From Zootoca vivipara (Eukaryota): a stretch of 64,000 bases of DNA. Shown one piece after another: positions 30,901 to 32,207 of this stretch (the first letter of the stretch is position 1; the number at the start of each line of letters is the position of its first letter). A program made the position numbers. Location of the stretch: contig NC_083282.1 in the NCBI RefSeq assembly GCF_963506605.1, positions 39,370,001 to 39,434,000 on the forward strand, given 5' to 3'.

Positions 30901-32207
30901 TAAAAATTTCAGCTGTAGATTTAAACCCTAATAATTTATTATTTTTTATCTTAATTATCTGCATAATTCTTGTTTTGTCATAAAATAAAAATGACTCAAA
31001 ATGCCACCAACATTTCTAAATATTTCTTCCCAAAAGCCTGTATATTTTGCTGTATTTATAATACATCATCAGCATCCACAGGATTTTTGGGGGAGGATGG
31101 GAGCATATGCATACAAGCATAGTTATCGCTAAGTTTTGCTCAGAGAAGACCAATTTAAATTAGTGGACCCAAGTTAGTCATGTTCATTCATTTCAGAAGG
31201 TCTACTCTGAGTGGGACTAGCATTGGATACAAACCATAATATTTTTATGAGTTTGTGGGTCGCAGCCCTCTATAATCCCTGGACCCAGCAGGTGTTAGAA
31301 TTTAATCAAGGCTTGTGTGTTAAGCTGAGTGCTAGACACTTCTGATTCCTGGATGCAGCAAGTGCTAAAAGCTAATTAAGCCAGGCTAGCGCAATGGGCC
31401 ATTAAGAGGACCAAGGATCAAAGTGCTGCTTGTGCTAGATTGGCAAAAGGCGGGCCTTCCCTCCTTCAACAGATAAAGCCAGAGTGTAGAGAAGAGGAGC
31501 TAGGAAACTGTAAACTGAAGAGACAGCAAGGTGGGTGGGGGAGCAGTGTTTGATGTCTGTCTGAACCCAAGTCTGTGGCTATGAGAGAAGACCCTTTTGG
31601 GGGGTCTGCTGTGAGCCCCTCCATCATAGGCTCAGGTTGTATATATGTGTAAATAAACCATATATCATAAAGACACCAGTCTCTGCTGTGTCTCATTTCC
31701 AAAAGGAAACCCTTTGGACCCTGCACCACTCAGAGATTGGGGTGGCATGCAACAATATATACCAGGGCCAGCCCACCCATGAGGCCAGGTGAAGCAACCA
31801 CTGTTTGTTGACTGCAAGGCTGACAGAACCAGCACATGAAGGTCGCAGACTGGGCTCGTATTCAACAAGAAATTGGACATTCACTGCTAATACTATAGCT
31901 TTATCATTGCCATATCAGAACTAGTGGGGATGTTAAGGGGTGGGGTTATAGTGGAAGAAATCATAATCATCACCATCATTTTATTATTTATACCCTGCCC
32001 ATCTGGCTGGGTTTCCAGCAGAAATAAAAATGCCAAACATTGAAAACTTCCTGATACTGGGCTGCTTCAGGTGTCTTCGAAAAGTTGTGTAGCATCATTT
32101 GCTTTGCCTCCATCCATTGCGCCCCACCCACCCCCCCCGCCCTGAATTTAATGGGTTGACTCCATGAGCCAAAGGCGTTACATTTCTGCAACAGGATTTT
32201 CAGGCTA

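What the first reader, a model, noticed from the sequence alone, without database searches (positions are those of the whole stretch)
31962..32205. TMEM141 retrocopy ends in a co-oriented L2 3' tail: candidate L2-driven chimeric retroposition
Seen: about 113 nt after the TMEM141 stop, the sequence switches into the extreme 3' end of the L2 family present at 25878-26750. It is in the same (minus) orientation and ends in a simple-repeat tail instead of poly(A), and this tail provides the first AATAAA. No poly(A) remnant or long TSD typical of L1-made retrocopies is visible. Known: L2-clade LINEs are considered stringent, recognising their own 3' tail, so most vertebrate retrogenes are attributed to L1. 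Inference: the copy arose either by RT template switching from L2 RNA to TMEM141 mRNA, or because the parental 3'UTR already held an L2 tail that made it an L2 substrate. Either would be a little-described route to new genes in reptiles.
Basis: partly seen in the sequence, partly recalled or inferred. Interest (0 to 1): 0.75.

Follow-up and report, generated by a model that had tools for sequence, protein, structure and literature searches.

The report
Lizard TMEM141 retrogene ending in L2 tail
An intronless copy of the TMEM141 gene in a lacertid lizard, probably the working TMEM141 gene of these lizards, is followed directly by the tail end of an L2 jumping element, but this window alone cannot show whether L2 made the gene copy or simply landed beside it.

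Summary
The ORF at 32597..32205 (-) is a full 130-aa TMEM141. A same-strand piece of about 140 nt (32115..31975) matches the extreme 3' end of the L2 copy at 25878-26830. It starts about 91 nt after the stop codon, not 113.

No poly(A) and no flanking direct repeat above chance were found. The first AATAAA (31985-31980) lies in the L2 tail.
- an ATTAAA 53 nt after the stop;
- a 21-nt G-run between that ATTAAA and L2;
- the loss of one arm of the L2 hairpin in this copy.

The "retrocopy" is probably the annotated TMEM141 of lacertids. A Podarcis isoform model is colinear with the locus up to a splice-acceptor-like site. The ORF lies between YIPF1 and NDC1, head-to-head with NDC1 near a CpG-rich stretch. 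In 7 of 7 other squamates, TMEM141 and NDC1 sit on different contigs.

The L2-driven origin can be neither shown nor excluded here, because no lizard DNA from other species or from the parental locus was available. I put two separate events at about 0.45 and L2-mediated co-retroposition at about 0.4. U6-L2 template-switch chimeras are already published for Anolis and platypus, so the mechanism would extend a known one.

The parts
32205..32597 (-). Intronless TMEM141 coding sequence, 130 codons plus TAG stop (32207-32205)
   Evidence: ORF list. Pfam PF15110 E 7e-36, covering profile 1-91 of 91. 95% identical to Podarcis muralis and Lacerta agilis TMEM141. 128 of 134 residues identical to P0001 by tblastn.
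32598..32694 (-). Leader upstream of the ATG, colinear with the N-terminal extension of Podarcis muralis TMEM141 isoform X1 except for a 22-25-nt indel (about 32610-32634)
   Evidence: tblastn: P0001 residues 3-23 map to 32694-32632 in another frame, and residues 23-156 map to 32609-32208.
32695..32720 (-). Pyrimidine-rich tract ending in AG: splice-acceptor-like site. Colinearity with the Podarcis model stops here, and the model's first two residues are not encoded
   Evidence: Sequence read and tblastn boundary. That this is a used acceptor is inferred.
32143..32204 (-). Proximal 3'UTR with ATTAAA at 32152-32147
   Evidence: Hexamer scan. No L2 homology.
32122..32142 (-). 21-nt G-rich run between ATTAAA and the L2 piece; origin unexplained
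   Evidence: Not L2-derived.
31975..32115 (-). 5'-truncated, 3'-anchored L2 tail: end of ORF2 plus 3'UTR. It lacks the 22-nt 5' arm of the family hairpin and contains the first AATAAA (31985-31980)
   Evidence: blastn, nhmmer, alignments A1 and A2, folds, hexamers.
31959..31979 (-). Degenerate triplet tail, 7 imperfect ATG/ATT-like units, at the L2 3' end
   Evidence: Sequence. Below the TRF threshold. Partly alignable to the tail of the 58k copy.
25878..26830 (-). Reference L2 copy: 279-aa open C-terminal ORF2 piece, strong 3' hairpin, 4-nt repeat tail
   Evidence: (z -3.99; 0 of 200 shuffles fold as well). Pfam finds no domain in the ORF.
58547..58705 (+). Third L2 tail, a short lone copy flanked by a 38-nt direct repeat (58508-58545 / 58720-58757, 34 of 38 identical)
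   Evidence: nhmmer, alignment, local alignment with 0 of 300 shuffles reaching the score, the repeat finder.
33600..34200 (.). CpG-rich stretch (CpG o/e 0.83-1.5) between the retrogene and the first recognisable NDC1 exons; candidate shared promoter
   Evidence: NDC1 exons on + from 36.4-37.6 kb onward.

Best explanation
The region is the 3' end of an old, conserved TMEM141 retrogene, most likely the TMEM141 gene that is annotated in lacertid lizards. The gene sits between YIPF1 and NDC1, head-to-head with NDC1, about 1-1.5 kb from a CpG-rich stretch, and has an acceptor-like site for a recruited 5' exon.

Its 3'UTR runs through an ATTAAA and a G-run into a 140-nt, 5'-truncated L2 tail. I judge it marginally most likely that the retrocopy and the L2 tail arrived in two separate events, in either order. 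In that case the co-oriented tail simply became part of the transcript end, offering the only canonical AATAAA.

Shown:
- the anatomy of the region;
- the non-parental position;
- colinearity with the Podarcis model.

Inferred:
- expression;
- use of the L2 AATAAA;
- the two-event history.
For: - Short 3'-anchored tails of this L2 family occur on their own in the same window: 3 tails in 64 kb. The 58k copy carries its own 38-nt flanking direct repeat.
- The flank copy lacks the 5' arm of the hairpin that both other copies keep. It folds no better than shuffles (z -0.92; 30 of 200 shuffles fold as well), against z -3.99 for the 26k copy.
- No direct repeat brackets the composite unit (177 of 300 and 289 of 300 shuffles reach the observed scores).
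- An ATTAAA 53 nt after the stop gives the mRNA part its own possible end.
- The insertion is old, so missing poly(A) and TSD carry little weight. TMEM141 is 95% identical to Podarcis/Lacerta, while DIO1 exon 1 is 91% and an NDC1 exon 84% identical to Podarcis muralis.
- Retrocopy numbers across chordates tracked L1 counts and no other LINE type. This comes from PMC3136929, passages seen; the passage I saw of its LINE table had no lizard row.
Against: - The L2 piece begins only about 32-35 nt after the ATTAAA, which is where an mRNA end would be expected. It is in the same orientation and reaches the true L2 3' terminus.
- With 2 other tails of this family in 64 kb, my rough estimate of such an adjacency by chance is well under 1% per retrocopy.
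- No A-rich remnant lies on either side of the L2 piece, and no direct repeat flanks the L2 piece alone (103 of 300 shuffles reach the score).
- L2 reverse transcriptase is known to make cellular-RNA/L2 chimeras in a lizard (PMC4476161).
Confidence: 0.45

Rival explanations
1. L2 machinery retroposed a spliced TMEM141 transcript that already ended in an L2 tail. The tail would have been either embedded in the parental 3'UTR or reached by read-through past the weak ATTAAA into an L2 fragment just downstream of the parental gene. On this reading the G-run would be parental downstream sequence, and reverse transcription would have been primed on the L2 tail, so no poly(A) was ever present.
For: - The order ATTAAA, then G-run, then a co-oriented 3'-anchored L2 tail, with no A-run anywhere.
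- Stringent LINEs mobilise RNAs that carry their 3' tail. This comes from PMC3747384 passages and PMC4476161 section 10, both citing the eel UnaL2 work, which I did not read.
- A lizard SINE/L2 tail-sharing pair (Anolis SINE2 / Anolis LINE 2) is listed in PMC3747384.
Against: - The hairpin arm needed for a stringent-type tail is missing in this copy, so a later 22-nt deletion must be assumed.
- No direct repeat flanks the composite.
- The parental locus could not be inspected.
Confidence: 0.22
2. Template switching: L2 reverse transcriptase started on an L2 RNA tail at the target site, copied about 140 nt, then jumped to a TMEM141 mRNA. This would give an mRNA/L2 chimera like the published U6-L2 chimeras.
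For: - The architecture matches: a cellular RNA copy upstream of a short co-oriented L2 3' piece.
- PMC4476161 section 10 reports 40 platypus U6-L2/Mon-1 chimeras with short L2 parts, with TSDs of only 1-9 bp in 72.5% of them. It also reports 3 U6-L2 and 6 U6-AnolisSINE2 chimeras in Anolis.
- TSDs that small would be invisible in my tests.
Against: - A jump onto a polyadenylated mRNA end should leave A's at the junction. Instead there is a 21-nt G-run and no A-run.
- Almost all platypus chimeras carry a 5'-truncated cellular part, whereas here the whole CDS and a leader are present.
- Nothing comparable for mRNAs turned up in my searches.
Confidence: 0.18
3. The ORF is not a retroposed copy at all. 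It would be the ancestral gene that lost its introns in place, or a DNA-level relocation, with the L2 tail as ordinary flanking repeat.
For: No poly(A) or TSD is visible, and the parent was not seen.
Against: - The ORF lies inside the DIO1-YIPF1-NDC1 block.
- In 7 of 7 non-lacertid squamates with both values, TMEM141 and NDC1 are on contigs of different length.
- Isoform pairs of frogs and mammals diverge at about residue 103, which implies a CDS intron that is absent here.
Confidence: 0.05

Closest known systems
U6 snRNA-L2 and U6-AnolisSINE2 chimeric retrocopies (platypus, Anolis carolinensis; Doucet et al. 2015, PMC4476161)
   Same: A cellular RNA copy fused upstream of a short, co-oriented, 3'-anchored L2 (or L2-tailed SINE) piece, with no poly(A) and tiny or no TSDs. 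It is found in a lizard genome.
   Different: There the cellular part is a Pol III snRNA, usually 5'-truncated. Here it is a full protein-coding mRNA copy that stayed functional. Co-insertion is not shown here.
Tail-sharing mobilisation by stringent LINEs (UnaL2/UnaSINE1 in eel; Anolis SINE2/Anolis LINE 2), as reviewed in PMC3747384
   Same: An RNA ending in the L2 3' tail could be recognised and copied by L2 proteins, and the product would end in the L2 tail rather than poly(A).
   Different: The known passengers are SINEs or reporters. The hairpin of the tail is incomplete in this copy.
L1-type processed retrogenes
   Same: Intronless full CDS at a new locus.
   Different: The defining poly(A) and 7-20-bp TSD are not visible. 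The age of the insertion may explain this.
Orphan / replacement retrogenes and retrogenes on bidirectional promoters (reviewed in PMC5470649, passages seen)
   Same: The copy appears to be the annotated TMEM141 of lacertids. It is head-to-head with NDC1 near a CpG-rich stretch.
   Different: Loss of the parent and actual promoter sharing were not testable here.

Membership tests
Processed retrogene | Complete CDS without the introns that relatives have | tested here: met
   A single 130-codon ORF. Isoform pairs of Xenopus, Eptesicus, Enhydra and Cynocephalus diverge at about residue 103, implying an intron there. This evidence is indirect, because no gene structures could be read.
Processed retrogene | Sits away from the parental locus | tested here: met
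   The ORF lies between YIPF1 and NDC1 next to DIO1. TMEM141 and NDC1 contig lengths differ in 7 of 7 non-lacertid squamates with both values.
Processed retrogene | 3' poly(A) tract | tested here: not met
   No A-run between 31700 and 32205 apart from L2's own terminal motif.
Processed retrogene | Target-site duplication | tested here: not met
   Exact and mismatch-tolerant searches in four configurations all stayed within chance. TSDs of 1-9 bp could not be seen by these tests.
L2-clade LINE 3' tail | Homology to the 3' end of an ORF2-bearing L2 copy | tested here: met
L2-clade LINE 3' tail | 3' stem-loop just before the tail | tested here: not met
   The 22-nt 5' arm is absent from this copy and present in both others. 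Fold z is -0.92 here against -3.99 for the 26k copy.
L2-clade LINE 3' tail | Terminal short tandem repeat | tested here: inconclusive
   Seven imperfect triplets, with no TRF call at score >=30. The 26k copy has 8 copies of a 4-nt unit.
L2-clade LINE 3' tail | Reverse transcriptase that groups with the L2 clade | not testable with these tools
The window's longest copy is 5'-truncated and has no Pfam domain. Rfam gave no LINE 3' element hit.
LINE template-switch chimera | Cellular RNA copy fused in sense to a 5'-truncated, 3'-anchored LINE piece | tested here: met
LINE template-switch chimera | One TSD pair around the whole unit, and both parts appearing together at an otherwise empty site | not testable with these tools
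   No long repeat was found. Orthologous sites were unavailable.
Retrogene on a bidirectional promoter | Head-to-head with a neighbour gene at a shared CpG-rich region, with transcript evidence | tested here: inconclusive
   Orientation and CpG o/e fit. The transcript evidence is only the Podarcis isoform model. The upstream exon was not located.

The most novel reading that the evidence does not exclude
An L2-clade LINE, not L1, made a full-length TMEM141 retrogene in the lacertid stem lineage, either from an L2-tailed/read-through transcript or by template switching. That copy then docked at the NDC1 promoter region and became the working, possibly the only, TMEM141 of these lizards. It would be the first protein-coding, gene-replacing product of a stringent LINE.
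Probability: 0.35. Interest if true: 0.65.

Novelty: new member of a known kind. Interest (0 to 1): 0.42.

Why it matters
Stringent LINEs (L2, CR1) are held to explain why birds and monotremes have few retrogenes. A documented case of L2 producing a complete, conserved, expressed gene copy would show that this barrier leaks. It would also give a sequence signature, an intronless CDS ending in a sense L2 tail, to screen for in reptiles, fish and monotremes.

Whatever the mechanism, the locus looks like a gene relocation by retroposition. TMEM141 has moved from its ancestral chromosome to the DIO1-YIPF1-NDC1 block, and a transposon tail supplies its canonical polyadenylation signal.

Tried and rejected
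- **Cluster members.** Which species and how many TMEM141 lineages sit in those clusters therefore stayed unchecked.
- **Rfam.** An E-value scan of 25700-33300 gave no LINE 3' element. It returned only sub-threshold miRNA-like hits on palindromic DNA.
- **Extending L2 into the G-run.** Rejected: 284 of 300 and 220 of 300 shuffles reach the scores.
- **TSD searches.** Exact and mismatch-tolerant searches found nothing above chance at the TMEM141 locus. The positive control at 58.5 kb worked.
- **Upstream exon.** A search for an exon ending in the codons of the first two residues of the Podarcis model plus a GT donor gave 0 hits in the relevant region and 1 irrelevant hit on the + strand at 26204. 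Two near-matches seen by eye at about 33497 and 33582 (-) lack a GT donor.
- **ARAGORN.** It found no tRNA in the SINE-like repeat.
- **3'-flank ORF search.** I considered searching the spurious ORF across the 3' flank to catch orthologous loci. I dropped it because the lacertid entries in the protein set come only from annotated sources.
- **Literature.** The query TMEM141 plus retrogene gave 1 unrelated paper. No paper on mRNA copies ending in L2 tails turned up.

Full report
**What is in the sequence.**
- On the minus strand an ATG at 32597 opens a 130-codon frame that ends in TAG at 32207-32205.
- It matches the whole Pfam TMEM141 model (PF15110, E 7e-36, profile 1-91 of 91).
- Its best database relatives are the 130-aa TMEM141 of Lacerta agilis and isoform X1 of Podarcis muralis, both 95% identical. 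Rhineura follows at 77%, then other squamates at 61-75%.
- I take the window for a lacertid lizard, not for human DNA. The two N runs (57568-57698 and 58845-59002) were left alone.

**The L2 piece is real.**
- blastn of the 3' flank against the window gives two same-strand matches to the L2 copy at 25.9-26.8 kb: 83% over 53 columns (E 1e-6) and 91% over 34 (E 1e-7).
- A small profile built from the two tails recovers a third, independent tail at 58547-58705 on the plus strand (E 6e-18).
- In the three-way alignment all copies share the end of ORF2, the 3'UTR and the terminal A/T-rich motif. The flank piece therefore reaches the true 3' terminus of the family and is 5'-truncated to about 140 nt (32115-31975).
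- Identity over shared columns is 99 of 132 to the 26k copy and 81 of 135 to the 58k copy. The two reference copies share 106 of 162.
- Homology does not extend upstream of 32114. L2 therefore begins about 91 nt after the stop, not 113.

- An ATTAAA lies at 32152-32147, 53 nt after the stop. It is followed after 4 nt by a 21-nt G-rich run (32142-32122), which ends a few bases before the L2 piece. I cannot explain the G-run.
- The 26k copy folds into a strong hairpin just before its tail (z -3.99; 0 of 200 shuffles fold as well). The flank copy lacks the 22-nt 5' arm that both other copies keep, and folds like shuffled sequence (z -0.92; 30 of 200).
- The 'simple-repeat tail' is seven imperfect triplets (31979-31959) and is below the Tandem Repeats Finder threshold. 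The 26k copy ends in eight copies of a 4-nt unit.

**Poly(A) and target-site duplications.**
- There is no A-run anywhere between 31700 and 32205 except L2's own motif.
- Exact repeats of 6-7 nt and mismatch-tolerant local alignments were at chance level in every arrangement tested:
  - the composite unit (177 of 300 and 289 of 300 shuffles reach the score);
  - the L2 piece alone (103 of 300);
  - the retrocopy alone (253 of 300).
- The same test on the 58k tail found a 38-nt direct repeat, 34 of 38 identical (0 of 300 shuffles).
- That repeat may be a target-site duplication. However, a 16-nt motif from it occurs four times nearby, so it could also belong to a host repeat.

**The 'retrocopy' is probably the lacertid TMEM141 gene.**
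- Residues 3-23 of Podarcis isoform X1 (P0001), an N-terminal extension, map onto 32694-32632 directly upstream of the ATG. They are in another frame because of a 22-25-nt indel. Residues 23-156 map onto 32609-32208.
- Colinearity stops exactly at a pyrimidine-rich tract ending in AG (32695-32720), and the first two residues of the model are not encoded there.
- I infer a splice acceptor and an upstream exon, which I could not locate.
- The 95% identity is at ortholog level or better. DIO1 exon 1 of the window is 91% identical, and an NDC1 exon 84% identical, to Podarcis muralis. This also suggests purifying selection on the ORF.

**Position.**
- I scanned 450 of the 673 stop-to-stop frames of at least 45 aa against Pfam. 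The 223 frames starting before 13.5 kb or after 57.1 kb were not scanned.
- The scan showed:
  - three deiodinase exons on the minus strand (15.8-18.9 kb);
  - one weak Yip1 exon on the plus strand (25641-25877, below cut-off);
  - eight NDC1 exon frames on the plus strand in colinear profile order (37.6-48.8 kb).
- Two further NDC1-like exons were read by eye at 36.4 and 37.1 kb.
- TMEM141 therefore lies between YIPF1 and NDC1, head-to-head with NDC1. A stretch with CpG o/e of 0.83-1.5 lies at 33.6-34.2 kb between them.
- In all 7 non-lacertid squamates for which both values were returned, TMEM141 and NDC1 sit on contigs of different length.
- Hemicordylus has DIO1 and NDC1 on the same 322-Mb contig and TMEM141 on a 16.6-Mb one.
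- Lacerta agilis TMEM141 is on a 95.5-Mb contig, but no contig was given for lacertid NDC1, so that link is open.
- That DIO1-YIPF1-NDC1 is the ancestral block, and that TMEM141's ancestral neighbours are elsewhere, is partly my recall of the human map.
- Isoform pairs in frogs and mammals split at about residue 103. This implies a coding intron that is absent here.
- Spliced neighbours were searched exon by exon only. The joined models were deliberately not made.

**Mechanism.** Two families of explanation remain.
- *Two events.*
  - Short tails of this L2 family exist on their own (3 in 64 kb).
  - The hairpin is broken in this copy.
  - No repeat brackets the composite.
  - The mRNA part has its own ATTAAA.
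  - The insertion is old enough for poly(A) and TSD to have decayed.
- *One L2-mediated event.*
  - The tail is co-oriented and 3'-anchored, and starts about where the mRNA should end.
  - No A-rich remnant lies on either side of the L2 piece.
  - A chance adjacency is, by my rough estimate from the window's own density, well under 1% per retrocopy.
- Doucet et al. (PMC4476161, section 10 read whole) report U6-L2 chimeras in platypus. There were 40, with short L2 parts and TSDs of 1-9 bp in 72.5%. In Anolis they report 3 U6-L2 and 6 U6-AnolisSINE2 chimeras.
- They conclude that template switching is general to non-LTR elements.
- I put two events at 0.45, an L2-tailed or read-through parental transcript at 0.22, template switching at 0.18, and other histories at the remainder.

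**Literature seen.**
- PMC3747384, passages: stringent versus relaxed recognition; the Anolis SINE2 / LINE 2 pair.
- PMC3136929, passages: 404 retrocopies in Anolis; correlation with L1 only. The passage I saw of its LINE-count table has no lizard row.
- PMC8665684 and PMC5729268, passages: the CR1 hairpin plus microsatellite; CR1 template switching in SINE birth.
- PMC5470649, passages: orphan retrogenes; 11% of expressed mammalian retrocopies on bidirectional promoters.
- PMC2104539, abstract.
- bioRxiv 10.64898/2026.06.26.734816, passages, and 10.1101/2025.02.02.635956, passages.
- Supplementary tables of the retrocopy census and of PMC4476161 were closed. They might list this locus or mRNA-L2 cases.

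**What stayed unchecked.**
- Any lizard DNA outside the window: orthologous sites, the parental locus and transcripts.
- The closed contig collections, which were not used.

Noticed in passing
window 29198-29660 and 29763-30220: A near-perfect palindrome. The arms of 340 nt and 116 nt are 99-100% complementary, so long open frames on both strands carry the same translation. It also draws sub-threshold miRNA-family hits. It could be a real inverted duplication or an assembly artefact.
   Followed up: partly
window 58508-58757: A lone 160-nt L2 tail bracketed by a 38-nt direct repeat (34 of 38 identical). If that repeat is a target-site duplication it is much longer than the 1-9 bp reported for platypus L2 chimeras. 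A 16-nt motif from it recurs 4 times nearby.
   Followed up: partly
window 32818-33166, also 9770-10114, 38997-39325, 44808-45171, 60255-60494: A SINE-like repeat of about 345 nt with 5 copies in the window, 71-95% identical to one another. One copy sits between the retrogene and the CpG-rich stretch. ARAGORN finds no tRNA in it.
   Followed up: partly
window 15833-18919 (-): Three exons of a type I iodothyronine deiodinase (DIO1). Exon 1 is 91% identical to Podarcis muralis. The selenocysteine codon and SECIS element were not looked for.
   Followed up: no
window 33540-33660: Two copies of a motif of about 20 nt lie about 60 nt apart at the edge of the CpG-rich stretch. A possible NDC1 first exon at about 34.0 kb could not be confirmed.
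   Followed up: no
window 32610-32634 (-): A 22-25-nt indel relative to the Podarcis isoform X1 model. It puts the model's N-terminal extension out of frame in this species, so only the 130-aa form can be made here.
   Followed up: partly
window 25641-25877 (+) and 25878-26830 (-): A weak Yip1-domain exon frame (YIPF1, below the Pfam cut-off) abuts the 3' end of the antisense L2 copy. The remaining YIPF1 exons and its 3' end, which should converge on the TMEM141 3' end, were not located.
   Followed up: no
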